Positions 10,790 to 38,804 of a stretch of DNA of 64,000 nt are shown here, in pieces; position 1 is the first letter of the stretch, and every line of letters begins with the position of its first letter. This DNA is from Thermoplasmatota archaeon (GTDB lineage: Archaea > Thermoplasmatota > E2 > JACPAO01 > JAHFTW01). The translations under genes and the position numbers were made by a program. The notes beneath the pieces were generated by a model, which saw only the letters and a program-made list of their open reading frames with translations, was not told the origin of the DNA and made no database searches. The stretch lies in contig JBFIHX010000001.1 of NCBI GenBank assembly GCA_041601615.1, forward strand, positions 371,997-435,996. Direction: 5' to 3'.

Positions 10790-10969
10790 GGGTGTCTGGT
10801 ACCACCGAAGTCTCCGATAAAAGCACGGGGTTAGGGGGCGGCGGGCTGCCTTCTGTGGGCGCGGGGCAAATTGGGCCTTGTACAGGAGGACGGAGGGGCA
10901 GGGGCCCAAACTGCACCGTTTTAGAGAATCGCCAAAGTGGCTAAATAGCTACCAAAGCGCAGCAAGTGT

Positions 10970-11470
10970 TTGGGTGTATCCCAAATGAAGCAGAAGACCC
11001 TCCTCCAACTCGTTCCTCCCCCCAACGAACGGGACTACTTGGAGCACTTCCAGAGCCTCGCAAGCGTGAACCTGGAGATTCGACAGCGGGGACCCACGGC
11101 AGAACGACTGCTTCGCAAGTCCATCCTTGAAATGGATCTCGGTAACTTTTCGGCAAGCTTGGATGCCGCACGAGACGCGGCCGAGTTGCATCACAAGGAC
11201 CCGGAGGCGCGCTACCAAGAAGCAATGGCACTCGTGATGCTGGCCTTCACCAAGGCTGGCGTTCTTGCGGGTGCTGCGGGCATGGAGTCGCCGCTGGCGT
11301 CCACGCAGACGCTGATGAAGCAGGCAACCCAGGCGTTCGCCGAGGTCGTCAAGTACAATCCTGAAGACGAGGAGGCAGCGGAGGACCTTGCGGCCCTGTC
11401 CCGCTTCCTCATGGAGCATCCAGCCGAGAAGGACCTGGATGCCGGCCTACAGTCCCTGTGGGCCAACTGA
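10970..11470 (+). CDS. Hypothetical TPR-like helical protein
   Basis: Helical repeats ending KDPEA / YNPEDEEA; start may be 10985. Confidence 0.6.
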   Translation: MGVSQMKQKTLLQLVPPPNERDYLEHFQSLASVNLEIRQRGPTAERLLRKSILEMDLGNFSASLDAARDAAELHHKDPEARYQEAMALVMLAFTKAGVLAGAAGMESPLASTQTLMKQATQAFAEVVKYNPEDEEAAEDLAALSRFLMEHPAEKDLDAGLQSLWAN

Positions 11471-11627
11471 GGAAATCCGATCAACATGGGTATCTCCTTT
11501 CTCCTCTTTTCTCCCTTGCAGTTTCGAAGATTGGATGCGAATGGCTGCCAGCATCAGTGAACCATCTTTTTGGCGAACCATACATGCATGGCGATTTGTT
11601 TTCTGATTATTGCGCGCGATGGTTGCG

Positions 11628-12095
11628 TCACGGGCGCTTCCGTCGATACACATCGATTTCACCGCGCAGGCTGGTGGCGGTTCCGATGGTTTGCCAATCT
11701 CGAACCAGAAAGGACTGGGCTTGGGATTCGTCCACGCTCGTGTAGAGCGCCTCCGCCCCTCGGTTCCAGGCTTCCGTTTCGATGGCGGCGATGAGACGCT
11801 GCCGAATTTGCTGGGTGTGTGGCGCCTCGATTTCGGGCAGCATTCCAGTCAGCCACGGCCCCAAATCAGGGTGGCTGATGGAGGAATCTCGCAGGCATGC
11901 GGTTCCGCGCTGGGTGTCGTTGTCCAGTGCTAGGACACAGTACGGGGCTCCTTTTTTGGCATCGAGACGAGCTTCTAGGTCTCGCTTGGCGTCGCCTGGA
12001 CCGTCTTTGTAGTATGGCGCCCAGGCCTTTTCGTACCACGCCACAAGCTCAGGCAGACGTGCGGGGTGAAGTGATAGAGGCTCGATGCTGATCAT
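11628..12095 (-). CDS. GNAT family acetyltransferase (degenerate acetyl-CoA motif)
   Basis: HPDLGPWL...RLIAAIETEAWNRGAEALY pattern; overlaps the LVIVD gene stop. Confidence 0.65.
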   Translation of the reverse strand: MISIEPLSLHPARLPELVAWYEKAWAPYYKDGPGDAKRDLEARLDAKKGAPYCVLALDNDTQRGTACLRDSSISHPDLGPWLTGMLPEIEAPHTQQIRQRLIAAIETEAWNRGAEALYTSVDESQAQSFLVRDWQTIGTATSLRGEIDVYRRKRP

Positions 12096-13483
12096 GCAAA
12101 GCTGGTGTGCGTTTCCTTGCCGGCGGGGTCGGCGTTGTGGTGCAGAATGTAGAATCCGCCGTGTGCGTCGCCGGTGATCATGTAGCCATTCCAGACGACC
12201 ACGTCCCAGGCTCCGACGCTGTAGTTAGCGCCGTCCATGCGGGGTTCGTGGGGCATGTAGCTGCCGACGGGTTCGGGAGCGGCGAGGTTCGCGTCGCTGT
12301 CTACGTCGAGGACCCAGAGGCCGCCGTGGTACATGGCGAGGTACAGTTTTCCGTCCACGAATTGGAAATTGTGCATTGAAAAGCTGCCACTTTCGCCTTC
12401 AAAGTCCTCCAGTGCGGTCCATTCGGCCAGCAGTTCCGGGGCGGAGTAGTCGGTGGTGTCGAGGATGAAGAGAGCGGGCGGGTTGGCGCCTTCGGGAATG
12501 GTGGCGGTGATGCGGCGGTCGCCGCCGGGTGTCTCGTGTTTCCAGCTCATGGAGGTGTGGAGGACTCCGTCGTATTTCGTCGCCCCTTCGCCCATCCAGG
12601 AACCTATTTCGATGGGCACTTCGGGGATGCTGACGTCTACGAAGCGGACGCCGAGGTTCCAGAAGCTGACCATGAGCATTGGGGTGCCGGTGAGTGGGTC
12701 TTCTTGGTAGGTCATGTCCTGGTGGCCGCTGACAAAGTGCGTGGGCCAGCCGCTCGGGTTTTCCTGTAGCAGATTCACTTCTTGACCTACGTATTTGGTG
12801 GTGGCGGGGGTCCAGCGGGCGACCGTGAGCACCTCGCGAACACCGTTGACTTCGGGCAAGAGTTGGCCGACGTAGATGGCGTTGTCCAGGGGGGCGCAGA
12901 AGAGGTATTCTTGTTCGTCGATGATGGCGTACTCGACCATATGGCAGCCTGCTAGGAGGCCGGGTACGGGCCAGAAGCCGGCGAGCACCGGGTTTTGCTT
13001 GTCTCGGGTGTCGTAGATGAGGAGGCCAGGGGTGGCGCTCAATTCCATGCCGAGAAAGACCCAGTCTCCTGTGCTGTCTACTTTCAAGTCGGCGGTGTAT
13101 TTGCCCAGGACGAGGGATTCGGGTGCGACGGTTTCGGTCAGGCTGACCAATTCGGGGTTGGCGGAGTCGGCGAGGTCGACGATGGCAAAGCCGTAATCGA
13201 ACAACGTGACGAAGGCGTAGCCGCCTGCCACATCGATTTCACCAATGCGGCCGGGGGGCCCGTTGGCGCCGAGGGGGTTGTGGCCGATGAGGTCCACGTT
13301 GTTGCTGAGTGTGTGCGCGGAAAGGTCGCCGTGTTCGTGGCCGTCTCCTGAAAGAACGACGGGATTGACGAAGGGTTGCAGCGCGTTGTCTACGAGCGAG
13401 TCGGCGGGGTCTGGGGTGTCTGAATCCAAGCATCCGGAGAAGCCGAGGCCAACAAGCAGGAACGTCAGGAGGAGGACGCGCAT
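12092..13483 (-). CDS. LVIVD-repeat beta-propeller lipoprotein
   Basis: Lipobox FSGC; repeats FAIVDLADSANP, LLIYDTRDKQNP, VRFVDVSIPEVP, LWVLDV. Start placed at ATG 13483. Confidence 0.85.
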   Translation of the reverse strand: MRVLLLTFLLVGLGFSGCLDSDTPDPADSLVDNALQPFVNPVVLSGDGHEHGDLSAHTLSNNVDLIGHNPLGANGPPGRIGEIDVAGGYAFVTLFDYGFAIVDLADSANPELVSLTETVAPESLVLGKYTADLKVDSTGDWVFLGMELSATPGLLIYDTRDKQNPVLAGFWPVPGLLAGCHMVEYAIIDEQEYLFCAPLDNAIYVGQLLPEVNGVREVLTVARWTPATTKYVGQEVNLLQENPSGWPTHFVSGHQDMTYQEDPLTGTPMLMVSFWNLGVRFVDVSIPEVPIEIGSWMGEGATKYDGVLHTSMSWKHETPGGDRRITATIPEGANPPALFILDTTDYSAPELLAEWTALEDFEGESGSFSMHNFQFVDGKLYLAMYHGGLWVLDVDSDANLAAPEPVGSYMPHEPRMDGANYSVGAWDVVVWNGYMITGDAHGGFYILHHNADPAGKETHTSFA

Positions 13484-13527
13484 CGAGCACGAGGCTGGGA
13501 CGGGCAACTTTAGGTTTGGGGTGATGC

Positions 13528-13547
13528 CACGAGCGTTCCAAAAGTCC
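13528..13547 (+). repeat. Left terminal inverted repeat CACGAGCGTTCCAAAAGTCC
   Basis: Exact reverse complement of 25546-25565. Confidence 0.92.
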
Positions 13548-13662
13548 CAGCGGCTTCCATAACTAGGGGAACCAATTGCTAAATGGGGGGCCCTAAGGAG
13601 AGGGCGTTCAAGGGGTGAGGTGGGGGAGTAGGTTGCATAAGTGGGGGAGTCTGCCAGGGGCG

Positions 13663-13956
13663 TTAGTCTTGATGGGGTGGCTCCCGCCATCCTTCATCGC
13701 GTCGTTGCCTCCACCGGGCTTCGCGTTCTTTCCGCCATTGTTCGACTCGTTGGTGTTGATTTTCGAGTTCTTCCCGAGTGGGGCGGCGGAACGTCACAAC
13801 CACATAGTCGCCTTGGTCAATGCCTAGAGCTTCTGAATCATTTTTGGAAAACGGCACATAATGGACGAATCCCGTTCGGCGGATTCTCTTCGTGCGTTTC
13901 AGGGTCAGAGACTCAATCTCTGGGCAGTCTTCATGCGTCGTGTTTGTCGGGGTCAT
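13663..13956 (-). CDS. Small AbrB/MazE/SpoVT-like DNA-binding protein with charged C-terminal helix (97 aa)
   Basis: KRIRRTGFVHYVPFSKNDSEALGIDQGDYVVVTF fits the swapped-hairpin pattern; start overlaps the upstream ORF stop. Confidence 0.65.
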   Translation of the reverse strand: MTPTNTTHEDCPEIESLTLKRTKRIRRTGFVHYVPFSKNDSEALGIDQGDYVVVTFRRPTREELENQHQRVEQWRKEREARWRQRRDEGWREPPHQD

Positions 13957-14300
13957 AGTTTCACTTCCATTCGTGGTTTTCTTTCCTGGTGTTTGGCCCA
14001 AGGTGGGCCGTCTAGTACGACCTGGATTTCTCCTGTAAACAGGGTTCCGAGGTCTTCGTAAAGGGCAGGGTAAGTAGTGCGAAGGTGATCCTCCAATTCT
14101 CGAAGGGCGGTGGAAACGCGATTTATGGCGCAGATTTCGGATTCGTCGAGATTGATGACGTACCCACCCATGACACGGGCAACGCGCAACTCTCGAAGGT
14201 CTGCCAAAGAACTGTGAATGTGTGTTCCGACAACGGTTCCCAAAGTCCCACTTGTCCAAGCACCGTGGCGAATTGGTGCAAGAACACGAATTACAACCAC
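13953..14300 (-). CDS. Hypothetical protein
   Basis: ORF coupled to the downstream AbrB-like gene; start uncertain. Confidence 0.45.
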   Translation of the reverse strand: MVVIRVLAPIRHGAWTSGTLGTVVGTHIHSSLADLRELRVARVMGGYVINLDESEICAINRVSTALRELEDHLRTTYPALYEDLGTLFTGEIQVVLDGPPWAKHQERKPRMEVKL

Positions 14301-14372
14301 CCCCGCAAAGCTGGCCAGATTCGAGGCTCAAATCCAGGGATACGGTTGATTGAGCATCTTTGATTGTCGGTG

Positions 14373-14660
14373 CTACTTTTCACGGCGACAGCCCCCCATT
14401 TCAATGATGACAAGTGACCCACAGGCTGGACAAGACGCCGACCAGATGCCTACGGGGCCTGCATCTGGATCTTCGACTTGCCCCCATTGCGTGATGGGGG
14501 TGTTGCAGCCTCGGCACTCGACCGGAGATCTTGTGGGCCGCTGCTGGCAAACAAAATCGAAGCGGGGAGATTTTGCCTCCGATTCGCCGGAGAACCTGTT
14601 TGAGGCGTTTTGGGCCATGTGGGCCAATAGCCCACTTGGGCTACTTATCATCTGCCCCAA
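14373..14660 (-). CDS. Small zinc-ribbon protein
   Basis: CRGC...CPACG pair; start uncertain (14618, 14651 or 14660). Confidence 0.5.
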   Translation of the reverse strand: MGQMISSPSGLLAHMAQNASNRFSGESEAKSPRFDFVCQQRPTRSPVECRGCNTPITQWGQVEDPDAGPVGIWSASCPACGSLVIIEMGGCRREK

Positions 14661-14731
14661 ATAGGCTGTTGACCCATATGGGCCATTTATATTGCGCGGG
14701 CTTTTAGCCCTGGGCCGACATCTGGCCCAAC
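14605..14731. promoter_or_regulatory. Divergent promoter region rich in TGGGCY/RGCCCA half-sites, with a TATA-like TTTATATT
   Basis: TAGCCCA-CT-TGGGCTA (14628-14643), CCCATATGGG (14673-14682), TGGGCC-N7-GGCCCA (14711-14729), TTTATATT (14686-14693). Confidence 0.55.
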
Positions 14732-14905
14732 GTGGACGCGCGACCGAAGCCAGATGTAGCCCGGAGCATCGACAGCACAGGTCGATTGCGGCTACCGCCA
14801 GAAGTCAAGAAACGACTCAAACTTGACTCCGGGGATTCCGTTGGGTTCTTCTTTGAGGACGACCGAATCTGGATCAGTAAAGTCGAATTTGTGGCGACCG
14901 ACTAG
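14732..14905 (+). CDS. AbrB/MazE/SpoVT family DNA-binding protein (57 aa, absent from the ORF track)
   Basis: Manual translation MDARPKPDVARSIDSTGRLRLPPEVKKRLKLDSGDSVGFFFEDDRIWISKVEFVATD has the canonical IDxxGRxxLP...LxxGDxV pattern. Confidence 0.85.
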   Translation: MDARPKPDVARSIDSTGRLRLPPEVKKRLKLDSGDSVGFFFEDDRIWISKVEFVATD

Positions 14906-14909
14906 AGCC

Positions 14910-16364
14910 CTAAACGGTTCGCACCAATTCCGCGTCAGGCATTAGGGCCGCCGCTGGCTCCAATGGTCGCCATTCCATGCGTTGGTTGAACTCGATCATC
15001 CGACCTCGGGCCCCATCCACCGTTTGCGGGACGCATTGGTCGAAGAACGGACTAAGCCCTTCGATGGCGGCTTCTTCTCGTGGCTCGTCTCCGAGCCGGT
15101 GGTGCATTGCGTATACGTTCCGCCAAAACGCCGTCAGAATCATTGGATCGTCTGCCGACAATTCGAGTGCTGCTAGGAGCAACTGGCTTGCTTCCTGATT
15201 TCCGGCAGGGCCCCCCAATGACTCGGCCAGATTGATTCGAGACAATACGCGCCTGTAATTGTCGAGTGTTTCGTCGAATGCGGCAAGGGAACGGCGCATA
15301 TGAGTCTCAAAATCAGAGATTCGGTTTACCCGACGGAAGTGGATTGCCGCGTTTTCGAGTAGGTGTCCACGTTGAATGTCATTCAGCCCTTTCATGTCGG
15401 CGGCGATGCCAAGAGGAAGCCCTGCTTCGCGTTCCGTATCCCATCGCACAAGCCCTATGCTAGCCCTCTGGAGCAATATTGACCCGTACCGGCCCCACTC
15501 TGGGTCTTTCTCTGCCAATTCGAGCCAGAGCTTTCCTGCGGCCTCTGCGTCGTGCTTCGTATAATTGAAAACGCGAGGTGTTCGCAGGAGGGCTTCTTGG
15601 AGATCGGGGCCCTTGGAGCGCCACCAGTCGTTGACCAGGATACTTGAGACATGATTCGCTAGAACAGTGACTGCTAGCGGATGAACCAAAGTTTGAGCTT
15701 TGATGGATTTCTCCCTAGTGCCGTTTGAAAGTCGTGAAATTGCCATATGAACCTGTTCTCTGACTAGCCCCCATACTCGAAGGGTTTCAGGGTAAGTCCC
15801 CAGAATAAGGCCGTTAACCTCGATCCAGTCCAGGGCGTCCTTGAAGCGTTTCTTTGGAGCATCAAGCCAGTCCATAATGTCTGGTTCGGGATATTCGCCG
15901 GAGTGCCATTTCGTTTCGGACGTTTGGTCGAAAACGGTGGAGATTGTCGCCTGCCGTGCATCGTTGGATTTTGAGTGCTGGTCAATGGAGATTGCATCAG
16001 AGAGATACTTCTTCGCCATTCGGGCCTGTTGGCGACCGATATTTGCATCGCGACGACCCCCGGTTTCTGCCTTTGACCAATCTTGAAGAGATCCTTCTTC
16101 CGTGAGGGCCTTCGCGACAACGGCTGAAACTAGGGACTTGATGCGATTGTCATACTTGTTGGATTGCATTTCTCGGGCCACATGGCGGTGCAATCCGGGG
16201 TAGAAGCAACGACGGTTGAGAAATTCATTGTGAGGGCTGTCCTCGGTGATGACAAAATTTGGTGCTTGTTCTCGCTGGCGGTCCTGATCGGCTAAGGCGT
16301 ACTGGATGTACCCATGAGTGATGGCTGCAAGCGTGCTCCAGTCCAAATCTTCTGGTTTGTTCAT
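14910..16364 (-). CDS. Hypothetical 484-aa protein, C-terminal half TPR-like
   Basis: Long ORF with GAGGT SD; helical repeats such as HLLENAAIHFRR and LSRINLAESLG. Confidence 0.7.
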   Translation of the reverse strand: MNKPEDLDWSTLAAITHGYIQYALADQDRQREQAPNFVITEDSPHNEFLNRRCFYPGLHRHVAREMQSNKYDNRIKSLVSAVVAKALTEEGSLQDWSKAETGGRRDANIGRQQARMAKKYLSDAISIDQHSKSNDARQATISTVFDQTSETKWHSGEYPEPDIMDWLDAPKKRFKDALDWIEVNGLILGTYPETLRVWGLVREQVHMAISRLSNGTREKSIKAQTLVHPLAVTVLANHVSSILVNDWWRSKGPDLQEALLRTPRVFNYTKHDAEAAGKLWLELAEKDPEWGRYGSILLQRASIGLVRWDTEREAGLPLGIAADMKGLNDIQRGHLLENAAIHFRRVNRISDFETHMRRSLAAFDETLDNYRRVLSRINLAESLGGPAGNQEASQLLLAALELSADDPMILTAFWRNVYAMHHRLGDEPREEAAIEGLSPFFDQCVPQTVDGARGRMIEFNQRMEWRPLEPAAALMPDAELVRTV

Positions 16365-16402
16365 GATTACCTCGGGGGAAGAGGGGGATGAGGATTGAAG
16401 CC

Positions 16403-16528
16403 TTACTTGCGATTGGCTTCTGCTTTGGTTTGAGCCCCGGTGGGCGATTCACCACTCGATCGCCAGTGCGTCGGGTGCTGGGGGTTCAGTTGGTTGCTGC
16501 GGTTGTCGTTTTGCGCTTTGTCGGGCAT
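16403..16528 (-). CDS. 41-aa micro-protein with NDNRSNQLNP motif (absent from the ORF track)
   Basis: Manual translation MPDKAQNDNRSNQLNPQHPTHWRSSGESPTGAQTKAEANRK; AGGA upstream; ends 39 nt before the 484-aa gene. Confidence 0.6.
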   Translation of the reverse strand: MPDKAQNDNRSNQLNPQHPTHWRSSGESPTGAQTKAEANRK

Positions 16529-16609
16529 GTCTGTCTTCCTGCGGCGCTTGCCGTGATGGTACATAGCGCGACGAAAGACAAGTGGAAATCGGACAAAACT
16601 GGTTTTCTA

Positions 16610-18320
16610 GCCGAGATCGGTTGGCGAGTCTCGGCGCGAGATGTCTCGAATCTCGAAGTGAAACCCCGGAAGTCTGGGAAATCGAGACCCCTGAAACCAG
16701 TCTCGCGAGTCTCAAATGAAGGGTCCAGGGGAGACCCTTGCAACAGGAGGCCGAATCCGTCTCGCGAGACCCCGCCGAGACCCCCGAGACTCATTGGAGT
16801 CTCGGCTTGAGACCCCGAAATGGGTCACGCAACAGGAGAGCCGAGACCGAAATTGAAACCCCCCAGACCCCACGGACCGGGGAGTCTCAAGGAATCTCAA
16901 AAGGGGTCTCGCAACAGGAGACGGAGACCGAGTTTGAATCTCGTTTGGCTTCACGGGTCTCGTGGGACCTGATTTGGAGTCTCGAATTGGGGTCTCGGGT
17001 CGAGTGAACGGAGTTCATGCTCGGGGCCTCGGGGTCGTCCAGGAGGGGTTAGGATTGGGGTCGATTCAAGCCGTGGATTCGGGTCTTCGGACCCCAACAA
17101 ACGGAGTGTCCCGAAGCCGACCCCACCGGGTACCCGGAACCCGACGAAAACGGGTCTCCGACACCCACCCATCGGGTCCCGGAGACCCGACCCAAAACGG
17201 GTACCCAACACCCAACCCAGCCGGGTACCCGATACCCAATCCATTTTGGACCCTTGCAACAGGAGGCAGGACACCCGTTTTGGGTACCCATGAACCCAAC
17301 CCAAAGCGGGTACCCAGAACCCAACCCACGCGCAAACAAGGCCCCAACAGAGGTGGGTCTCGGATACCCACCCAACGGGTCCCAGGGACCCCACCCAAGC
17401 CGGGTACCCTGGAACCCCCATTCCGAATTACCCAGGGCTCAATCCATGAGATCCATCAACCCTGGGAAGGAGCCCCTTGTTTGAGGGGTTCGAGGGTTCG
17501 GCACAAGGGGTTCGGTTTTGAGGCTCGTTTGAACCCTTGCCGCTCCTGTTGCGGGGGTATGCTCGTGTGGGTTCGCGAAGGGTTGGCTTGTGAACGCTTG
17601 CGAGGGTTCGCGAGGGTAGGCTCGATTGAACCCTCGCGCCTCCTGTCGCAAGAGTAGGCTCGGGAGGGTTCGCGAACGTCGGCTCATGAACCCTGGCGAG
17701 GGTTCGCGAGGGTTCATTTTTCCGAGCATCCCAGGTGTTCGAGGGTTCGGAAATCGAACTCCGAGGATGTTCAGCTAGGGTTCAGGTTTGAGGGCTCGGG
17801 AGGGTTCGTGGGGTCGCTCTTACGGGGTTTGAATCGGGGTCGAATCTTGCCATGAATTCGGGCCTCCGGACCCCGGCAAACGGGGTACCCCGAACCCACC
17901 CCAAACGGGGTACCCCAAAGCCGACCCCACTGGGGTACCCCGCGACCCCGCCCTGATTCGGCCCCGCCAACGGAAGGAATCGACCCCACTTTGACCCCGG
18001 CACACGGGGTACCCCGATTTGGAACCCCAAAAACGGGGTCTGTCCCTCCTGTCAAATTGGGGTGGATTGGGTGGGGTCAAACGGGCCCCGAGCGGGGTAC
18101 CCCGGCAAAAAACCCCAAAAATCACCCCTTCCTCTCCTGTTAGATTGGGGTTGTTCTGGGTGGGGTCCAATAGACCCCACGCGGGGTAACCCAGAATTGA
18201 CCCCGCTGGCACCCCCACCGACCCCCAGATGGGCACCCCGAATCCGACCGCACGGAGAAATTCGGACCCTGCCTATCTGGCGCCGAACGGGTTCCGATCT
18301 GGGATTTTGGCCCCCGCCGA
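16610..18320. repeat. Non-coding region of four motif-saturated blocks with eight ACAGGAG boxes
   Basis: Blocks dominated in turn by GAGAC/GTCTC, GGGTACCC/ACCC, GGGTTC/GAACCC and GGGGTACCCC; ORFs here are only low-complexity. Confidence 0.85.
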
Positions 18321-18345
18321 TGGTGGTTGGATCGGCGGGTCGTGT

Positions 18346-21300
18346 TCAGGCACTTGCTTGAAGAATGCAGGTTTCGAGGTCTGTAATTTGGCGTTCATCG
18401 AACAAGGCATCCCATCCCTTCGGAGCCAGATCGGTAAACGGCGGCTCGTAGAGCGCCTTGATCTGAATGGACCCATGCTCGACGATGTAGTCCACGACCA
18501 TGTTGAGGAATTGGATTTGGTGCGAGTTCATGTTCCGTTCATTCAGGAATTTTCCGAATGCTCGTTTTGCTACGTCGCGATCCAAGCCGACGAGGGAACG
18601 CACGAACCCGGCCGTACCGTTTGCGGCCTCTCGGACTTGCTTTAGCATGGAATTGTCTGATCCGGCGATGCCTTCCAGGAGGGATTCGAGGTGTGCCAGT
18701 CCCTCTGAATTGAGGGGTTCACCACGTCGAACGCACTGTACCACGGGGTCTTCGTCGAGGCTTCGCAAGTGATACTTGGCCTTCTCGCGGAACCGCTGGA
18801 AATCACCATTTGTAGTCGTGCCGGGGAGAGTCAAGGGAACTGCCATACCAATTTCATCCTCGAAATCAGTATAGAGCGGGGTTCTTACGTGCTTGTCGAG
18901 GAGGTGAATGAGAGTACGCAACTGACGCCGGGCATGTTCCAGCATGGCCGTTGTCACGTCTTCCCACCAAGCGTCGGTTTGGAGGTCTTGAATCAGGTTC
19001 AATTCCTTTTGAACGACTGGAATGTTGCGCTTTTCCTCCAATCGTTCGGCCAGGGATCGCACCTTGTCACGCAAGCCCGGAGCGTTTGGATCATCGCGAA
19101 GAAGTGCAAGTTCAAGCGTGAGCATCATGAGGTCGAACCGCTTCGCCTCCTCCTGCTCTGGTGGCATTTCTGCGGGGAGCGGCGCGACTTTCTTTGCAAG
19201 CTCGGGCGCTTGTTCTGGCTCAAGGAAGCCCCAGGCTTCCTCTTTGCTAAATCGCTCCACGAGTTTTCGCTGGGGGCGCACGACGAAGTTCTCCAAGTTC
19301 ATGGAGGCTACCTCGTGGCGCAAGGTCTCGGCAAATTCCCGACGCAAGGGATCGGCTGCATCTGGCTTGTCGCCAGGGGGCCCGCCGTCGCGTTGGTCAA
19401 ATTCTTGAACGAGGCCCAAACGGGTTTGGAACAATCGCTCCTTGAGACTTGGCGCAACACTGGCACTTCCTTCGGGAAGGTCGAGGCTGAAGTGTTCCAG
19501 GTTGCGGCAAAAGTCGAAGATGAAGAACGACTTTTTGTCTTGCCCAGGGCCGAACAAGTTCTCGCAGAGGCGGGTTCCTCGTCCGATCATTTGCCAGAAT
19601 TTGGTCTTGGATCGAACGACTTTGAAGAAGACGAGGTTGCAGACTTCGGGAACGTCGATTCCCGTGTCGAGCATGTCCACGGAGATCGCCATTCCGGGGT
19701 CTGGGAGGCGTTTGAAGTCCTTGATGAGGGTATCAGCGTACTTGGTCTGGTAAGTGATTACACGGGCAAATTTGCCGGCCAAGTGGGGATAATGGACGTT
19801 GAAGCGTTTGTCGATGAAGTCTGCGTGGGCTTGATTCTTGGCAAAGATGATGGTCTTGGCCAACCGATCGCCGCCCTCGATTTTCTGGCCGTTTGTCATG
19901 ACATGGGCGAGTGCCTTGTCCACCGTGTCGTCGTTGAAGAGCCACTTGTTCACATGGTCGGCGTCCACGTCGCGGGGCGGTTCGTCCTCCTCCCCCCAAT
20001 CTAGGTTGTCCCACTGCTCTTTGTCTTCGTCTGGAAGCTCGTCGTAATGGATGCCTTCGCGAGGGAACAGGAGTGGGACAGAGTGGGCCTCTGGCGGAAC
20101 GAGGTAACGATCCTTGATGGCTTCATCCAGGTTGTAGGCGTCGGTGGGAACGCCTGCTTCCAAGTCAAAAGTCGAGTACGTGTTGCGTTCAATTTCGTCC
20201 TTGGGTGTCGCGGTGAGGCCGAGCAAGGGCGCGTCAAAGTACTCGAAAATTGCCTTGTATTTTCGGAAAATGGATCGGTGGGCCTCGTCGATAATAACCA
20301 AGTCGAAGTGGCCTACGCTGAATCGACGCTGGCCTTCTTTGACCTCGTCGATGAGGTTCATCATGGTGTGGTATGTGGAAACGTAGATGCGGCCTTCGGT
20401 GTCCTTTTCCTCAAGTAGGTTGACTGGGTTGAAGCTGGGGAGGTGCGTTTTGAAACCCTCACCGGCTTGATTGGCGAGTTCGCGCCGATCGGCCAAAAAC
20501 AGGATTCGTTTGGCCCAATTGGCTCGCATCATTACGTCTGCTAGAGCGATGGCGGTTCGGGTTTTGCCGGTGCCTGTCGCCATGACGAGGAGGGCCTTTC
20601 GGCGCTGGTCGGACTCGAAGGATTCACAGATGCGTCGAATTGCACGATTCTGGTAGTGCCGATCGACGATGGATTTCTTGATTTGGGTCTCTGCAAGGCT
20701 GTGGCGCGTGGTGCGGCGCTGGATGAGGAGTTGAAGTTCGGCCTTGCTGTAGAAGCCCTGAATTTCGCGTGGCGGGTAGCGGTCGTCTTCCCAAATCCAG
20801 TGTTTGTATCCGTTGCTGTAGAAGATCACGGGCCGTTGACCGGTTTCGGCTTCTAGGCAATCAGCGTAGAGCTTGGCTTGCTGTTGCCCAATTCGCGGGT
20901 CATTCTTGGTGCTCTTTGCTTCCACAATGCCCAGTGGTGAGCCGTCGTCGCCCCATAGAACATAATCGACGTAACCCTTTCGCGAGGGATTGGGCATTCC
21001 CTGGACTTCGTATTCGAGGTCATTGGGGCCATTGAGTTTCCAGCCAGCCTCCTTCAGGAGCAAGTCAATGAAGAAATCCCGCGTTTCTGCCTCGTTGAAG
21101 TCGTGGTCCACGGGGACGGCTTCGTTGGCTTTTCGGGTTTCCTCGATTTGGGCGCGAAGGCGCTTGAGCTCGTCGTTTAATTCGCCGTGAACGACTAGGA
21201 TTTTCGTGAGTTTTTCGTCTTGCTCGGCGCGTTGTGCTTGCAAGGCGGCGAGTTCGGCGGCGGTGCTCCTGGATCCTACGGCTTCTCGGGGAAGCAAGGA

Positions 21301-21702
21301 TTTGTCGAACTGCATGGGCCCCGGCGGGTCCTTGCTGTAGGTGCAAGCAAACCAGTACAGGATTTGCCAGAGTTCGCGCACGGCAGCGATTCCGTCTTCC
21401 TCTCGAATCGTGGCGGAGCCGTGGACCGCTTCGTTGCCAAGCCGAGCCAAGATTCGGCACTTGGTGAATACAGGTCGCCCCACGACATCCTGGAATGATG
21501 GTTCGTGGATGAGTGCCGAGAGATTGTCATTGTATGGAAGCTTGAGGCGATTGTCGTGCTTGTATGCCCAATGTAAGGCCAATTCCAGCGCACGGCGAGC
21601 ATGGAAACAGGCGGTGCGTGGGTCCGGGATGGCCAAGGATTCAGCTTGGAGGGCGGGTTCTTGGACCTCGGGGAATGAATTGAGGAACGGTAATTGATTC
21701 AC
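18346..21702 (-). CDS. hsdR: Type I restriction endonuclease subunit R (EcoAI/EcoEI-like, N-terminal DUF4145-like domain)
   Basis: VDYVL...IVEAK nuclease motif, QQQAKLYA, MATGTGKT, DEAHRS, LTATP and QMIGRGTR. Confidence 0.95.
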   Translation of the reverse strand: MNQLPFLNSFPEVQEPALQAESLAIPDPRTACFHARRALELALHWAYKHDNRLKLPYNDNLSALIHEPSFQDVVGRPVFTKCRILARLGNEAVHGSATIREEDGIAAVRELWQILYWFACTYSKDPPGPMQFDKSLLPREAVGSRSTAAELAALQAQRAEQDEKLTKILVVHGELNDELKRLRAQIEETRKANEAVPVDHDFNEAETRDFFIDLLLKEAGWKLNGPNDLEYEVQGMPNPSRKGYVDYVLWGDDGSPLGIVEAKSTKNDPRIGQQQAKLYADCLEAETGQRPVIFYSNGYKHWIWEDDRYPPREIQGFYSKAELQLLIQRRTTRHSLAETQIKKSIVDRHYQNRAIRRICESFESDQRRKALLVMATGTGKTRTAIALADVMMRANWAKRILFLADRRELANQAGEGFKTHLPSFNPVNLLEEKDTEGRIYVSTYHTMMNLIDEVKEGQRRFSVGHFDLVIIDEAHRSIFRKYKAIFEYFDAPLLGLTATPKDEIERNTYSTFDLEAGVPTDAYNLDEAIKDRYLVPPEAHSVPLLFPREGIHYDELPDEDKEQWDNLDWGEEDEPPRDVDADHVNKWLFNDDTVDKALAHVMTNGQKIEGGDRLAKTIIFAKNQAHADFIDKRFNVHYPHLAGKFARVITYQTKYADTLIKDFKRLPDPGMAISVDMLDTGIDVPEVCNLVFFKVVRSKTKFWQMIGRGTRLCENLFGPGQDKKSFFIFDFCRNLEHFSLDLPEGSASVAPSLKERLFQTRLGLVQEFDQRDGGPPGDKPDAADPLRREFAETLRHEVASMNLENFVVRPQRKLVERFSKEEAWGFLEPEQAPELAKKVAPLPAEMPPEQEEAKRFDLMMLTLELALLRDDPNAPGLRDKVRSLAERLEEKRNIPVVQKELNLIQDLQTDAWWEDVTTAMLEHARRQLRTLIHLLDKHVRTPLYTDFEDEIGMAVPLTLPGTTTNGDFQRFREKAKYHLRSLDEDPVVQCVRRGEPLNSEGLAHLESLLEGIAGSDNSMLKQVREAANGTAGFVRSLVGLDRDVAKRAFGKFLNERNMNSHQIQFLNMVVDYIVEHGSIQIKALYEPPFTDLAPKGWDALFDERQITDLETCILQASA

Positions 21703-22631
21703 AGGCGCGGCACCCCATAGATGGCCTCAGAATCAAATTGTCGAAGAGCATACGGCGTTACACCGGCTAGGAGCATAGTAGTTGAAAGCCAGTCTCGAAG
21801 CGTAAGATCACGAGACGGCAAGTCTCGGCTAGTTCCGTGGCGCACCCCGCCATACTTGTTTGCAAATGAAGAAACTTGGATTGCTGCACCTTTTACCTGC
21901 CCGTGCGGCCAGTCCTTGATTTCGGCAAGCATCGCGTTCAAGGTTTGGGCAGCAACGTCGGGGTGCGTTGCACCAAGGGATTCCAAATGGATAATGTGAC
22001 TTGCTACACAGTTTTTGACACGTTTTTCGGAAATTCCAAGGCGTAAATCGCGCATTGATTCCTTAAATTCATCAAGGCGTTGCGCTTGTACTGCATCTTG
22101 ATAGCAGGAATTCTCGATGTTGCGAACAAATGATGATAATAGGCCCGGCAATGTAGGGTAGATTCGGCCTGACGCCTGCAACTCGTAGCGCAAACTGTAG
22201 GTGTCAATGAAGTGATGCCAAAGAGACAGGTACAGATCCGTTAGCCCAGGGAGCGAAAATTCCTCAAGTGTTTCAAAGACAGACTCCATGAAGCAGATAA
22301 TTTCTGACTCTGTCCGGAGACCACGAACTAGTTTTACTTGGAATTTAGCGGGTAGTGCATCAATTGCATCATCGCCCAGATCTTTAGCTAGTTCCGCCCC
22401 TCTCTCTTGACGGGCCTGTCTGACTTTTCGCTCGACTGGAATTTCGGCTGGAGTGCCTGCCACATTGCCTCGTGCCGCCTGCTCTTTAGCACGTTGAAGG
22501 CGATCCAAATGTGAGTGAAGCAAAGTATACAGGTCTGCTGTCAAACTAGCGGGGGCCCGATCATAGTCCAAAAGGGGTTGCCAGATTTCGTCACTGGATC
22601 TTGCCCATATGGGCTGGAATTCGCCCCTCAT
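21699..22631 (-). CDS. Accessory protein inside the hsd operon, AbiJ/HEPN-like C-terminus
   Basis: 4-nt overlaps with hsdS and hsdR; C-terminal FANKYGGVRHG resembles the AbiJ-type G(I/V)RH motif. Confidence 0.6.
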   Translation of the reverse strand: MRGEFQPIWARSSDEIWQPLLDYDRAPASLTADLYTLLHSHLDRLQRAKEQAARGNVAGTPAEIPVERKVRQARQERGAELAKDLGDDAIDALPAKFQVKLVRGLRTESEIICFMESVFETLEEFSLPGLTDLYLSLWHHFIDTYSLRYELQASGRIYPTLPGLLSSFVRNIENSCYQDAVQAQRLDEFKESMRDLRLGISEKRVKNCVASHIIHLESLGATHPDVAAQTLNAMLAEIKDWPHGQVKGAAIQVSSFANKYGGVRHGTSRDLPSRDLTLRDWLSTTMLLAGVTPYALRQFDSEAIYGVPRL

Positions 22632-23818
22632 ACACTACCCCTAGAAAACAAATGAAATTGAATGCTTGCTTGAAACGTATTTGCATGTTCCAAGCAATCG
22701 CTCAACAACTGTCGCTGCCGTTCAATTGCTGCAATCTGAGAAGCAAACTTAAATTGCAGTTCTACCGGGGGCAATGGGATTTTTGCTCGGGCCAGCCGAC
22801 CCTTTGAGATGTTTGGCATAGAACCGGCAGATCCTCCGGCCAAATCCTGAATTCGTTCACGCTGGCCAGGGTGCATCAAAAGTGCGGCTAGGTATTCCCC
22901 ATTTGTTTTATCATTCTTCAGAATGAGTCGAAATATCAAATCAGGGATTAGCAGTTTGTTTCGAGTTTCCCGGACAACTGCACACGCCCCTACGAGGTCG
23001 CGTGTATTCTTTCGAGTAAAGAGAACGTCGCCTTCCCGCACTTCGTTGGCGCTTTCATAATGTGTGCCCATTGGAAGTGCTTTGTTTTTGGTGGCATTGT
23101 ATCGACCCCATGTTACTGCACCAAGTTTCAGCACGCCCCACTCGTCGGGTTCGGCGGGCCGAGCGTGGCATTTGGGGCTCTTGCCACTGTCTATTTTGTA
23201 GATAATATCCTGTAATTCCACCACACCCCATCCCTTTTCATTCAGGATGGGATCTCCAAACATCTCCAAAAATAGCGATTGCTCTAACTCGTCAAGCAAT
23301 GCCAAGGCACGTTTGCGTTTGGCGAGGAGGGCGTCGGATTGGTCGAGGATTTTGGCGATGCGGCGTTGTTCGGGGAGGGGAGGAAGGGGGATTTTGAGGC
23401 TCTTAACTATGCCTTGACTAATATTGGGTTGGGCACCGCCGACCCCTTTGGCAATTATTGATTTCACTTGGGCAGACAATGCATAATAGAGGTAGTCTCG
23501 GTCTACGCGATCGTTATTGGGAATCAGGTGACAAACAGCTTGATTTGTCGTAGCTTCAATTCCGAGAATCCCGAGTCGGCCAACTGTGGCCCCATACATT
23601 GCGAGCAGAATAGAATCCGGGGGAATTAGCTTCAGCCTCGCTGCCTTCACCGCAGCCCCTGTTATTTTTTCTTGAGTGTCGAGTATTGTACTTTCGCGTA
23701 ATTCGCCTGATTTTACCCAAGGTATGGTGCCCCCATCATAATAATCTGCTAATTTTTTACGTGACGGGGTAGAACCTGAGCCGACTTGACAAATTTCTCC
23801 AATTAATGCCGTTCTCAA
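22628..23818 (-). CDS. hsdS: Type I restriction-modification specificity subunit S
   Basis: Two AT-rich TRDs; conserved IPLPPLPEQRRIAKILD and IPLPPVELQFKF segments. Confidence 0.95.
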   Translation of the reverse strand: MRTALIGEICQVGSGSTPSRKKLADYYDGGTIPWVKSGELRESTILDTQEKITGAAVKAARLKLIPPDSILLAMYGATVGRLGILGIEATTNQAVCHLIPNNDRVDRDYLYYALSAQVKSIIAKGVGGAQPNISQGIVKSLKIPLPPLPEQRRIAKILDQSDALLAKRKRALALLDELEQSLFLEMFGDPILNEKGWGVVELQDIIYKIDSGKSPKCHARPAEPDEWGVLKLGAVTWGRYNATKNKALPMGTHYESANEVREGDVLFTRKNTRDLVGACAVVRETRNKLLIPDLIFRLILKNDKTNGEYLAALLMHPGQRERIQDLAGGSAGSMPNISKGRLARAKIPLPPVELQFKFASQIAAIERQRQLLSDCLEHANTFQASIQFHLFSRGSV

Positions 23819-25353: not shown

Positions 25354-25545
25354 GCAAAAGCCCCCAAGAGGGAAGCGAGGGAATCATTAGACGCAAGCGT
25401 CACACCGGAACAAGTGCCACCAAGCAGGGCCACAACAGGCAAACAAGGGGCCCACATTAGGCGGTTTCCTACCTGGCCTCCCCCGCCCGGACGGCATCAG
25501 ATTTCAAAATGGGGGGAGGCGAATTTCAAAATGAGGGGCGCGGCT

Positions 25546-25565
25546 GGACTTTTGGAACGCTCGTG
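25546..25565 (-). repeat. Right terminal inverted repeat
   Basis: GGACTTTTGGAACGCTCGTG followed by GTGATGC. Confidence 0.92.
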
Positions 25566-25579
25566 GTGATGCCCCGACT

Positions 25580-26041
25580 TTGTCCCGTAAGGTTCGAGTG
25601 GCGGGCGGATTTGCGCAGTCTGTGGCCAAGCCAGCGCCCCCCACTGACGTTGATGCACTTCTGGCCGCGGCAAGTCCTCGGTTCCAAGCCGTGCACAAGG
25701 CGCTCGGCACCGCCGTACGCGAGGTATTCTCGGAAGCCACGAAATCGGTTGCGTGGAATATGCCCGGCTGGATCATCCCCGTGCCCCAGCCCCCTGCCGA
25801 GGCGGATTGGAAGGGAACGCTGCCCCGCACGCACTTGACGATCCTGGCAAGCGAGAAGAAGGCAGGCTTGACATTCCACGTTTGGCACCCGAATCGACCT
25901 GGCTTGCTGCAAGAGGAGGCGGCCTGGCTCAAAGCGGCCGGTTTCAAGCCGATGGTGGGTTGCGTGCAGTGGAACCGCAAAGGTGATCCGCCGATGGAGG
26001 CCTTTGAGCGGCTGCTTCGTGTGGCCAGGGATGCGTGTTGA
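25580..26041 (+). CDS. Hypothetical protein, DUF1801/YdhG-like
   Basis: VDALLAA...VAWNMPGW...FKPMVGCV pattern; overlaps the alaX-like gene. Confidence 0.55.
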   Translation: MSRKVRVAGGFAQSVAKPAPPTDVDALLAAASPRFQAVHKALGTAVREVFSEATKSVAWNMPGWIIPVPQPPAEADWKGTLPRTHLTILASEKKAGLTFHVWHPNRPGLLQEEAAWLKAAGFKPMVGCVQWNRKGDPPMEAFERLLRVARDAC

Positions 26042-26775: not shown

Positions 26776-26869
26776 GCTCGGCTTTGCGTTGCATGAGCAA
26801 AACCCGGCGCGGTCGTGGCGTCGTTTGGGCCACTCGCGAGGAGAATGAATGTGGGCTATGGGCTGCCGG

Positions 26870-38693: not shown

Positions 38694-38765
38694 GCCGACG
38701 TGGCTTAGCGGTATAGCAGCTGTCTTGTAAACAGCAGGTCGAGGGTTCAAATCCCTCCGTCGGCT
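38694..38765 (+). tRNA. tRNA-Thr(TGT)
   Basis: Cloverleaf: acceptor GCCGACG/CGTCGGC, anticodon arm GCTGT-CT-TGT-AA-ACAGC, T arm GAGGG-TTCAAAT-CCCTC; CCA not encoded. Confidence 0.95.
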
Positions 38766-38804
38766 CTTCTTCTTCCCCCTCGGGGCCTCGATTGCAAACT
38801 GAAA

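What the first reader, a model, noticed from the sequence alone, without database searches (positions are those of the whole stretch)
16610..18320. 1.7-kb non-coding region of four blocks, each saturated with its own short motif
Seen (approximate hand counts): ~16620-17000 has about 20 GAGAC/GTCTC; ~17030-17420 has six GGGTACCC plus many ACCC; ~17480-17810 has about 14 GGGTTC/GAACCC; ~17810-18320 has five GGGGTACCCC plus many ACCCC. Motifs occur in both orientations at irregular short spacing, so this is neither a tandem repeat nor a CRISPR array. Blocks 2 and 4 begin with an alignable ~85-nt diverged repeat (17031 vs 17810), suggesting two ~780-nt modules. Inference: an array of protein-binding sites (centromere-like or origin-like platform, perhaps for the AbrB-like proteins), a structured ssDNA/RNA, or a decoy array. 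The motifs include restriction-type sites (GTCTC, GGTCTC, GGTACC) and the region abuts hsdR.
Basis: partly seen in the sequence, partly recalled or inferred. Interest (0 to 1): 0.85.

Follow-up and report, generated by a model that had tools for sequence, protein, structure and literature searches.

The report
Non-coding four-block motif repeat region
A 1.9-kb gap between two genes of a marine archaeon is filled with four blocks of degenerate repeats, each built from its own short palindromic word, and one block is a copy of DNA that also forms the flexible linker of a provirus gene in the same genome; whether it does anything is still open.

Summary
Window 16610-18320 lies in a 1,981-nt gap (16365-18345) between an unknown 484-aa gene and hsdR. 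It has four blocks, each saturated with its own word, far above composition (0 of 2000 simulations reach any count). It shows no coding signal, matches no Rfam family, and assembles identically in three further samples of the same study.

New findings:
- Every block is a degenerate higher-order repeat of 82-109 nt. Each unit carries a 7-nt core, ACAGGAG: 8 copies, sense in blocks 1-2 and inverted in blocks 3-4.
- Block 2 is collinear over about 350 nt with the Pro-rich linker of a zinc-finger/membrane protein of a provirus-like element elsewhere in this genome. That linker is 60-100 aa longer than in 8 homologues.
- The region sits in a roughly 14-kb island, with a type I R-M system, inserted relative to one relative (G003).
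- Nothing similar was found in the relatives' genomes, phage, plasmid or viral collections searched.

Best reading (0.4): mobile-element-derived low-complexity DNA that became a self-remodelling compound repeat through slippage, unequal exchange and inverted-repeat template switching, with no sequence-specific function. Main rival (0.3): a multi-specificity DNA-level protein-binding or decoy platform. Neither was tested directly.

The parts
16365..16609 (.). Non-repetitive spacer between the start of the 484-aa gene and block 1
   Evidence: Sequence read. No repeat family here. The only ORF with a weakly positive coding score is 16403-16564 (minus strand, 53 aa), and it has no family hit.
16610..17030 (.). 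Block 1: GAGAC/GTCTC words (20) in three units of about 82-89 nt
   Evidence: 0 of 2000 simulations reach 20. Dominant lag 82. Includes the 12-nt perfect palindrome GTCTCGCGAGAC at 16759.
17031..17125 (+). Leader of block 2, paralogous to the leader of block 4
   Evidence: Family D5 (74% over 100 nt). Local alignment score 86 vs null maximum 24.
17126..17440 (+). Block 2 body: six GGGTACCC and 28 ACCC in degenerate units of 22-26 nt
   Evidence: Unit spacings 24, 22, 25, 24.
17079..17442 (+). Part of block 2 that is collinear with the linker-coding DNA of the 361-aa zinc-finger ORF of the provirus-like element on contig C2
   Evidence: BLAST: 86% over 74 nt. Gapped collinear alignment over about 350 nt. 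Score 100 vs null maximum 30. The two ends of the alignment are weak.
17441..17809 (.). Block 3: GGGTTC (11) and GAACCC (3) words, with GGGTTCGCGA four times
17521..17714 (.). Two tandem 97-nt units inside block 3, 81% identical
   Evidence: (97 nt, 81.4%), family D7, lag 97.
17810..18320 (+). Block 4: leader, five GGGGTACCCC, 19 ACCCC, 25-nt units and two units of about 88 nt
   Evidence: Significant 12.5-nt word periodicity.
16743..16749 (+). Core ACAGGAG, unit 1 (inside the exact 19-nt repeat GACCCTTGCAACAGGAGGC)
   Evidence: family D12.
16832..16838 (+). Core ACAGGAG, unit 2
16914..16920 (+). Core ACAGGAG, unit 3
17259..17265 (+). Core ACAGGAG, unit 4 (second copy of the exact 19-nt repeat)
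   Evidence: family D12.
17543..17549 (-). Core ACAGGAG, unit 5 (inverted)
17640..17646 (-). Core ACAGGAG, unit 6 (inverted)
18046..18052 (-). Core ACAGGAG, unit 7 (inverted)
18134..18140 (-). Core ACAGGAG, unit 8 (inverted)
18107..18121 (-). Two runs of T on the minus strand (6 and 5 T). They lie downstream of hsdR and could act as archaeal oligo-T terminators. A third run is at 18029-18033.
   Evidence: Read from the sequence. The terminator role is an inference from general knowledge of archaeal termination and was not tested.
14910..16364 (-). Flanking gene: 484-aa all-alpha, TPR-like protein of a rare family. The repeat region lies upstream of it.
   Evidence: No Pfam, PADLOC or NCBIfam hit. 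21 representatives in 1.84 billion proteins. Model pLDDT 88.8; only weak TPR matches.
18346..21702 (-). Flanking gene: hsdR of a type I R-M operon (hsdS 22628-23818, hsdM 23815-25353)
14732..14905 (+). 57-aa MazE/AbrB-like (SpoVT-AbrB fold) ORF, the only recognisable small DNA-binding candidate nearby
   Evidence: Pfam PF04014, E = 1.5e-5, 25.3 bits against a cut-off of 24.7.

Best explanation
The region is non-coding DNA of mobile-element origin that has turned into a compound, self-remodelling repeat.

Proposed origin. The ancestral material is the kind of C-rich, T-poor low-complexity DNA that encodes Pro-rich disordered linkers. That DNA was already organised in units of about 90 nt, each with an ACAGGAG core. 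One copy still sits in frame in the linker of a zinc-finger/membrane protein of a provirus-like element in the same genome.

Proposed remodelling. Once free of coding constraint, the island copy was duplicated into blocks. Each block was then homogenised around its own word by replication slippage and unequal exchange of 24-25-nt and 82-109-nt units. Template switching between short inverted repeats made the arms perfect, so that the reverse complement of a word sits directly next to the word, as in GGGT+ACCC and GGGG T+A CCCC. The same process inverted the spacer that carries the core.

On this reading the block-specific words need no four separate binding proteins, and the array has no sequence-specific cellular function. 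At most, its T-runs end hsdR transcription.

Shown: the anatomy, the non-coding status, the homology to the linker, the island context, and uniqueness in the data searched. Inferred: the mutational mechanisms and the lack of function.
For: 1. Not coding. No frame is sustained. There is no period-3 signal, 0.17-1.22 against 5.8 and 11.6 in genes. Repeat spacings are not multiples of 3 (24, 22, 25, 24). The same units are read in different frames within the chance ORFs. The 231-aa ORF has no homologue other than itself among 5.8 billion clustered proteins.

2. Block 2 is collinear with the provirus linker over about 350 nt. That linker is truly coding: its frame scores positive throughout, and there is one ORF in all four provirus loci. 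So the same DNA family lives both in frame and between genes.

3. The palindrome in each block is always the block's own half-word joined to its reverse complement. At all 6 GGGTACCC sites of block 2, the collinear provirus copy has only ACCC.

4. The core is inverted in blocks 3 and 4 while the flanking ACCCTTGC...GC keeps its orientation. The abstract of PMC8604942 (listing) names arm homogenisation and spacer inversion as the products of template switching between short inverted repeats.

5. Excess self-complementarity is the same on both strands (z = -3.0 to -6.0, against -0.4 to -2.1 in gene controls).

6. No conservation was found. DNA matches were found in 0 of 40 related genomes. The paired-palindrome pattern was found in 0 of 196 other genomes of the class. 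There was no match in 50,697 phage or 72,556 plasmid records. The 17-nt core pattern gave 55 single hits in unrelated taxa, with no locus holding more than one match.

7. The region lies in a roughly 14-kb island. In one relative (G003), the Lon and 407-aa gene matches lie 664 nt apart. The island's genes have atypical codon scores.

8. No partner gene for an origin or a partition system was found among the neighbours.
Against: 1. The 7-nt core is intact in 8 units (0 of 2000 simulations reach 8), although blocks 1 and 3 cannot otherwise be aligned to blocks 2 and 4. This looks like constraint. Part of it is ascertainment, because I found the units by searching for the core, and at least two degenerate cores exist (CAACAGAGG at about 17346 and CCAACGGAAGG at about 17968).

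2. Six plus five perfect palindromes with variable flanks would need many independent template-switch events or very short conversion tracts. Selection for dimer binding sites explains them equally well.

3. The differences between the two 97-nt units of block 3 are clustered, and the words are untouched.

4. Two kilobases of functionless DNA is unusual in a compact archaeal genome. I could not quantify this cleanly.

5. No copy-number variants were seen in contigs of 3 other samples. Contigs hide rare variants, and all runs come from one study.

6. The direction of transfer between the island and the provirus is unresolved. The apparent extension of homology into the conserved domain is not significant.
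Confidence: 0.4

Rival explanations
1. DNA-level protein-binding platform. Each block would be an array of palindromic full sites and scattered half sites for a dimeric DNA-binding protein. The four specificities would have evolved from half-site-rich linker DNA. The array could titrate or assemble proteins in several ways. It could be a decoy for DNA-binding proteins of the related viruses, for example the C2H2 zinc-finger domain of the linker protein. It could be a packaging or partition signal that lets the island ride with such viruses. Or it could be an operator field for the MazE/AbrB-like or 484-aa proteins next to it.
For: - GGGTACCC and GGGGTACCCC are loop-less palindromes. They cannot be hairpins but are typical double-stranded DNA dimer sites.
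- Word densities are far above composition.
- The words stay perfect while their flanks vary.
- The core is conserved in 8 units.
- A MazE/AbrB-like ORF lies 1.7 kb away. A rare TPR-like protein, weakly resembling HTH-TPR regulators, lies directly downstream.
- The setting is a defence island next to a type I R-M system.
- There is a link to a provirus gene whose product carries a zinc finger.
Against: - No initiator, ParA/ParB-type, ribbon-helix-helix or zinc-finger gene was found in the island. A regex scan of 10900-26800 gave one chance C2H2-like hit, inside hsdR.
- There is no AT-rich unwinding element; GC is at least 0.545 throughout.
- Words show no 10.5-bp phasing.
- Four different specificities would need four proteins.
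- In the provirus homologue pair L130/L133 (90% identical), the inverted words are not kept: 6 reversed GACCC words against 1 reversed copy of the top words counted there.
- No related array was found elsewhere.
Confidence: 0.3
2. Structured non-coding RNA or single-stranded DNA. The blocks would be transcribed, or exposed as single strands. The units would fold into hairpins that present the ACAGGAG core (which resembles a ribosome-binding sequence) in a loop, for instance as a protein or ribosome sponge.
For: - All blocks fold better than shuffles (z = -3.7 to -7.5; -3.0 to -6.0).
- In several units the core lies in a loop closed by block-specific stems.
Against: - No Rfam family matches at E <= 1.
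- RNAalifold finds 0 consensus pairs over the 8 units.
- Sense and antisense fold equally well.
- The main words are loop-less palindromes.
- I saw no AT-rich TATA-like stretch when reading the sequence; no archaeal promoter scan was run.
- No start codon lies at ribosome-binding distance after the cores.
Confidence: 0.08
3. Real protein-coding sequence: one or more low-complexity, Pro- or Glu/Thr-rich proteins, possibly needing frameshifts, or a very recent pseudogene of one.
For: - Block 2 is homologous to a true coding linker.
- T-poor DNA leaves long open frames (231 aa, 156 aa, 138 aa).
- Three of the four plus-strand cores can be read as Gln-Gln-Glu, as in the provirus protein.
Against: - No coding score is sustained.
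- There is no period-3 signal.
- Units are in different frames.
- The 231-aa ORF has no homologue.
- A profile of the zinc-finger/linker protein finds nothing in six frames (best domain E-values 0.2-3.7).
Confidence: 0.04
4. Assembly artefact: a chimeric or collapsed repeat.
For: Short-read metagenome assembly of repeat-rich DNA is error-prone. All holders come from a single study.
Against: - One 30.9-kb contig spans the whole stretch.
- Contigs of three other runs match 16520-17272, 17247-17492, 17557-17811, 17876-18142 and other pieces with 0 differences and no joints.
Confidence: 0.02

Closest known systems
Tandem repeats of Borg extrachromosomal elements of Methanoperedens (PMC9879509; search listing, abstract and passages seen)
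   Same: These are repeat regions of an archaeal mobile element. They occur both between genes and in frame inside ORFs, where they encode disordered, often membrane or extracellular, protein regions. They evolve fast, are genome-specific, and are virtually absent from host genomes.
   Different: Borg repeats are perfect head-to-tail units and A-rich. Here the units are degenerate, C/G-rich, built from palindromic words in both orientations, and organised in four blocks with a shared core.
Iteron and centromere-like site arrays of plasmids and phages (P1 incA, R1 parC, TP228 parH tetramer boxes, pSM19035 heptads, lambda ori inside gene O). Recalled from general knowledge; no call.
   Same: They have many short sites in direct and inverted orientation at irregular short spacing. 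Arrays can titrate a protein. Lambda ori lies in the linker-coding middle of its initiator gene, as the block-2-like DNA lies in a linker here.
   Different: Those arrays sit next to the gene of the protein that binds them. Origins also have an AT-rich unwinding element. Neither was found here. Four tandem arrays with different words are not a known layout.
Quasipalindrome / inverted-repeat template-switch mutagenesis (PMC8604942 and PMC7202029; search listing with abstract starts only)
   Same: It predicts homogenised (perfect) inverted-repeat arms and inversion of the spacer between them. Both are seen: perfect word palindromes, and the core inverted in blocks 3-4 while its flanks keep their orientation.
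   Different: It is described for single events in bacteria and yeast, not as the shaper of a 2-kb array. Its role here is an inference.
Rickettsia palindromic elements and other small repeats inserted in frame in genes (PMC10969869 and PMC1779305 seen as search listing only; the rest recalled)
   Same: A nucleotide-level repeat is tolerated in frame inside a protein-coding gene as well as between genes.
   Different: Those elements are dispersed in tens to hundreds of copies. Here there are only two loci in the genome.
CRISPR arrays
   Same: A long non-coding repeat region in a defence-gene neighbourhood.
   Different: There is no constant-length repeat and no regular unique spacers. No CRISPR-like array was found anywhere in the genome by a simple scan.

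Membership tests
CRISPR array | Identical or near-identical direct repeats of 24-48 nt, separated by unique spacers of similar length | tested here: not met
   The repeat families are 60-89% alike with irregular spacing, and the 'spacers' are themselves made of the same words.
Iteron-type replication origin | Clustered repeated binding sites | tested here: met
Iteron-type replication origin | Adjacent AT-rich DNA-unwinding element | tested here: not met
   The lowest GC in 200-nt windows across 16400-18400 is 0.545, against a genome GC of about 0.62.
Iteron-type replication origin | Neighbouring initiator gene (Rep, or Orc1/Cdc6) | tested here: not met
   No such family among the neighbours in Pfam, NCBIfam or PADLOC. 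The 484-aa neighbour is TPR-like.
Centromere-like partition site (parS/parC type) | Adjacent ParA-type ATPase and a centromere-binding protein gene | tested here: not met
   None found among the ORFs of 8.7-28.3 kb that were scanned. Only a MazE/AbrB-like 57-aa ORF.
Borg-type tandem repeats | Perfect head-to-tail units without mismatches | tested here: not met
   Units are 60-89% alike.
Borg-type tandem repeats | The same kind of repeat occurs both between genes and in frame in ORFs, where it encodes disordered regions | tested here: met
   Block 2 compared with the provirus linker.
Dispersed palindromic repeats (REP/BIME, MITE, RPE) | Many dispersed copies in the genome | tested here: not met
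   A unit profile finds only the 8 units themselves at E below 0.5. BLAST finds one other locus.
Known non-coding RNA family (Rfam 15) | Match to a covariance model | tested here: not met
   0 matches at E <= 1 over 15000-20000, both strands.
Protein-coding gene | Sustained frame-specific codon statistics, period-3 signal and homologues | tested here: not met
Restriction-site decoy | The words are targets of a resident restriction system, seen as genome-wide avoidance | tested here: not met
   Observed/expected ratios: GGTACC 0.90, GGTCTC 1.08, GAGAC 1.00, GGGTTC 1.02. Only TCGCGA is low, at 0.60. The specificity of the adjacent type I system is not testable here.

The most novel reading that the evidence does not exclude
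The four blocks are a multi-specificity DNA decoy or hitch-hiking platform on a defence island. Each block would have evolved from captured viral linker DNA into an array of palindromic sites for the DNA-binding (zinc-finger) protein of one variant of a family of small membrane-containing archaeal viruses. The array would then do one of two things. It could titrate that protein and block virus genome handling. Or it could let the island, with its type I R-M cargo, be packaged by those viruses as a satellite.
Probability: 0.12. Interest if true: 0.8.

Novelty: new variant of a known kind. Interest (0 to 1): 0.5.

Why it matters
If the neutral reading is right, this is a clear prokaryotic case of satellite-like DNA evolution. 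Linker-type low-complexity DNA would move between a provirus gene and an intergenic site, then be reshaped block by block by slippage and template switching. That bears on how disordered protein linkers and non-coding repeats feed each other in archaeal mobile elements, as proposed for Borgs.

If the binding-platform reading is right, it would be a new kind of defence-island or satellite component in marine archaea, where virus-host mechanisms are almost unknown. It would also show how new binding-site arrays arise from coding low-complexity DNA.

Either way, the region gives concrete, testable DNA probes (four words and one core) for the small proteins of the island and the provirus.

Tried and rejected
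**Searches and tests that led nowhere or were negative**
- Rfam scan: no match.
- RNA consensus structure over 8 units: no pairs.
- Sense-strand preference of hairpins around the core: none.
- Restriction-site avoidance: not seen (one search was a script error, fixed).
- G-quadruplex motifs: 4 in about 2 kb against 0.155 per kb genome-wide. This is a modest enrichment that does not explain block 1.
- Helical phasing of the words: none.
- CRISPR arrays in the genome: none. The three candidates are roughly 85-115-nt tandem repeats at contig ends.
- Direct or inverted repeats of 12 nt or more at the island borders: none.
- Protein remnants of the provirus zinc-finger, membrane or other genes in the region: none.
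- Extension of block 2 homology into the conserved C-terminal domain: not significant, so dropped (426 of 500 shuffles score at least as high).
- Cis-element hidden in the provirus linkers: weak. Their words are mostly in the coding orientation, and the inverted words of L130 are not kept in L133.
- Unit profile (nhmmer) against the genome and the provirus loci: only the 8 units themselves.

**Collection scans**
- GCAACAGGAG pair pattern in viral contigs: 120 or more unspecific hits, mostly with spacings in multiples of 3, so a wasted scan.
- 17-nt core pattern in genome contigs: 55 single hits in unrelated taxa, none with more than one match.
- GGGGTACCCC pair in genome contigs: 119 or more loci, mostly single pairs in high-GC bacteria and uninformative.
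- 484-aa protein in genome contigs: nothing.
- Provirus proteins in viral contigs: nothing.
- Metagenome scan: one locus, L133.
- Phage and plasmid BLAST: no match.

**Other limits**
- Gap-length ranking in the genome: my crude gene caller misses foreign genes, so I did not use it.
- Expression: no RNA holder was listed among the sequencing runs.
I did not call it.
- No supplementary files were requested. None seems to bear on the claims made.
Full report
**Setting**

The window is contig C1:371997-435996 of a 2.79-Mb, 30-contig genome with about 62% GC. The 16S gene start at the end of contig C2 looks archaeal to me; that judgement rests on my reading, not on a database comparison. All four sequencing runs that hold the region are marine metagenomes from one study.

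The finding lies in a 1,981-nt gap (16365-18345) between two minus-strand genes.
- One is a 484-aa ORF (14910-16364) with no Pfam, PADLOC or NCBIfam family.
- The other is hsdR (18346-21702). It is followed by a 310-aa unknown ORF, hsdS and hsdM.

- GGGTACCC occurs nowhere else in the 64-kb window. It occurs 23 times in the whole genome, 11 of them here.
- In 2000 first-order and 2000 second-order Markov simulations of each block, none reaches the observed count for any word.
- The leaders of blocks 2 and 4 are paralogous: 74% over 100 nt, 779 nt apart, with a score of 86 against a null maximum of 24.
- One 30.9-kb contig spans the stretch. Contigs of three other runs cover most of it in pieces with no differences and no joints. 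These runs belong to the same study, so this excludes a local misassembly but is not independent ecological replication.

**It is not coding and not a known RNA**

- A 3-periodic fourth-order Markov model was trained on 932 long ORFs of this genome. It gives clear frame-specific signal in both flanking genes and none in any frame of 16400-18300.
- No ORF inside the region has a meaningful score.
- Period-3 spectral power is 0.17-1.22 in the blocks, against 5.8 and 11.6 in the flanking genes.
- Repeat spacings are not multiples of three, and chance ORFs read the same unit in different frames.
- The longest ORF (231 aa) has no relative but itself.
- Rfam gives nothing at E <= 1.

- Each block is a higher-order repeat. 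The dominant lags are 82 nt (block 1), 109/47/24 nt (block 2), 97 nt (block 3) and 88/25 nt (block 4). Block 3 holds two tandem 97-nt units that are 81% identical.
- Every unit carries a 7-nt core, ACAGGAG. There are eight copies: four in sense in blocks 1-2 and four inverted in blocks 3-4. Of 2000 simulations, 0 reach eight.
- At least two further, degenerate cores exist. I found the units through the core, so part of this 'conservation' is ascertainment.
- An exact 19-nt repeat around the core links blocks 1 and 2 (family D12).
- In blocks 3-4 the core is inverted, while the flanking ACCCTTGC...GC keeps its orientation.
- The palindrome of each block is always that block's half-word joined to its own reverse complement: GGGT/ACCC, GGGGT/ACCCC, GTCTC..GAGAC, GAACCC..GGGTTC.
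- All blocks fold better than dinucleotide shuffles, equally on both strands (z = -3.0 to -6.0, against -0.4 to -2.1 in gene controls). This is a property of double-stranded symmetry.
- RNAalifold finds no shared structure over the eight units.
- The words are not phased with the helix. Only a half-unit period of 12-12.5 nt appears in blocks 2 and 4.

**A second locus, and what it is**

The only other similar DNA in the genome is on contig C2 (86% over 74 nt). There it lies inside a 361-aa ORF with three parts: an N-terminal C2H2 zinc finger (weak Pfam hits), a long Pro/Thr/Glu-rich linker, and a C-terminal part with two hydrophobic segments.

The ORF belongs to a roughly 9.5-kb run of co-oriented genes beside tRNA-Leu. 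These include a P-loop ATPase and a protein with a weak match to a viral coat domain (P2_C, E = 0.0014). I read this as a provirus-like element, and that label is tentative.

Homologous gene strings (zinc-finger/linker protein, ATPase and further genes) occur at two loci of one genome of the same order (1 of 196 other genomes of the class) and on one metagenome contig. In all of them the zinc-finger/linker/C-terminal protein is one ORF. In C2 its frame stays the best-scoring one through the linker, so there the DNA is coding.

A gapped alignment shows block 2 collinear with the C2 linker over about 350 nt, including both cores (score 100 against a null maximum of 30). Blocks 1, 3 and 4 show nothing above the null.

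The C2 linker is 60-100 aa longer than in all eight homologues available (lengths 260-304 aa against 361). The nearly identical 50-nt patch shared with block 2 lies in a segment that only C2 has. The direction of transfer is unresolved. An apparent continuation of homology into the conserved domain did not pass a shuffle test, and no other provirus protein remnant is present in the region.

**Context**

In one genome of the same family (G003), the matches to the Lon-like protease gene and to the 407-aa ORF at 25504-26727 lie 664 nt apart. Here the matched points are about 14.8 kb apart. Window about 11.3-25.5 kb is therefore an inserted island. It carries an LVIVD-repeat protein, small ORFs, the 484-aa gene, the repeat region and the type I system. 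Most of its genes have atypical codon scores. I found no repeats of 12 nt or more at its borders.

Nearby small ORFs include a MazE/AbrB-like 57-aa protein (14732-14905) and a weak zinc-ribbon-like one (14373-14660).

The 484-aa protein belongs to a rare family. It has 21 representatives among 1.84 billion proteins and none in 400 sampled genomes of the phylum. With a 20-sequence alignment it models confidently (pLDDT 88.8) as an all-alpha, TPR-like solenoid. It has no PDB match at E <= 0.001, and its weak hits are TPR proteins, among them PlcR and Rap-type regulators.

**Searches for relatives of the array**

- No DNA match in 40 related genomes.
- No paired-palindrome pattern in 196 other genomes of the class.
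- No match in the phage or plasmid collections.
- The 17-nt core pattern gave 55 single hits in unrelated taxa, none with more than one match.
- A scan for paired GGGGTACCCC was uninformative.
- The words are not avoided or enriched genome-wide, with observed/expected ratios of 0.90-1.08. This speaks against a link to restriction sites. TCGCGA, which occurs six times here, is under-represented in the genome at 0.60.

**Interpretation**

Two readings fit the anatomy.

The first is neutral, and I give it 0.4. Linker-type low-complexity DNA, once free of coding constraint in a recently acquired island, was duplicated. Each copy was then homogenised by slippage and unequal exchange of its short and long units. 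Template switching between short inverted repeats produced perfect arms and inverted the spacers. The abstract of PMC8604942 lists exactly these two outcomes (listing only). This explains several things without four unknown proteins:
- why each block's palindrome is its own half-word plus complement;
- why the six GGGTACCC sites of block 2 face bare ACCC in the coding copy;
- why the core flips while its flanks do not;
- why the symmetry is the same on both strands;
- why nothing is conserved elsewhere.

The neutral reading explains two features less well: the intact core in eight otherwise diverged units, and the many perfect palindromes with variable flanks.

The second reading, at 0.3, takes these two features as signs of selection for dimer binding sites. 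The region would then be a DNA-level binding, decoy or hitch-hiking platform. Against it stand several points:
- no partner gene was found;
- there is no unwinding element;
- there is no helical phasing;
- it needs four specificities;
- there are no relatives.

Structured RNA (0.08), true coding (0.04) and artefact (0.02) are minor alternatives.

The closest described phenomenon is the tandem repeats of Borg elements. These also occur both between genes and in frame as disordered regions, and they evolve fast (PMC9879509; abstract and passages read). Those repeats are perfect and A-rich.

**Limits**

No expression data were available, since no RNA holder was listed. No long reads or methylation data were available either. 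Names of classical systems used for comparison (lambda ori in gene O, P1 incA, R1 parC, TP228 parH, pSM19035 heptads) are recalled, not checked by any search.

Noticed in passing
Genome contig C2:312900-322300 (locus L127:1900-11300): A provirus-like run of co-oriented genes beside tRNA-Leu(taa). It includes a zinc-finger/Pro-rich-linker/membrane protein (361 aa), a P-loop ATPase (245 aa), a 285-aa protein with a weak viral coat P2_C match (E = 0.0014), and a DDE transposase at the far end. Related gene strings occur at two loci of one genome of the same order and on one metagenome contig.
   Followed up: partly
window 11300-25500: Island of about 14 kb, inserted relative to one genome of the same family (G003). 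There the matches to the Lon-like protease gene and to the 407-aa ORF lie 664 nt apart. No border repeats of 12 nt or more were found.
   Followed up: partly
window 14732-14905 (+) and 14373-14660 (-): A 57-aa MazE/AbrB-like ORF (Pfam PF04014, 25.3 bits) with no recognisable toxin partner. Next to it is a 95-aa ORF with a weak double-zinc-ribbon match (E = 0.006). Both lie in a 580-nt stretch between the 222-aa and 484-aa ORFs.
   Followed up: partly
window 14910-16364 (-): The 484-aa protein belongs to a rare family (21 representatives in 1.84 billion proteins). It models confidently (pLDDT 88.8) as an all-alpha TPR-like solenoid with an unassigned N-terminal part, and has no solved-structure match at E <= 0.001.
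   Followed up: partly
window 18346-21702 (-): hsdR carries an N-terminal DUF4145 domain (residues 20-107) ahead of the usual HSDR_N/ResIII/helicase/EcoEI_R_C parts. A 310-aa ORF with no family sits between hsdR and hsdS.
   Followed up: no
window 8762-10909 (-): A Lon-like AAA+ protease (715 aa) with weak BrxL and sigma-54-type AAA matches. It is conserved in relatives, so it is probably a core gene rather than part of a BREX system.
   Followed up: no
window 38694-38766 and 39378-39449 (+): Two tRNA-Thr genes (anticodons tgt and ggt), about 600 nt apart.
   Followed up: no
Genome contigs C9:1-210, C10:1-230, C18:31200-31454: Near-perfect tandem repeats of about 85-115 nt at contig ends. They probably caused the assembly to break there and are not CRISPR arrays.
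   Followed up: no
window 18290-18345: An inverted repeat (CCGCCGAT ... ATCGGCGG) lies directly after the hsdR stop codon. T-runs on the minus strand follow further downstream at 18107-18121 and 18029-18033.
   Followed up: no
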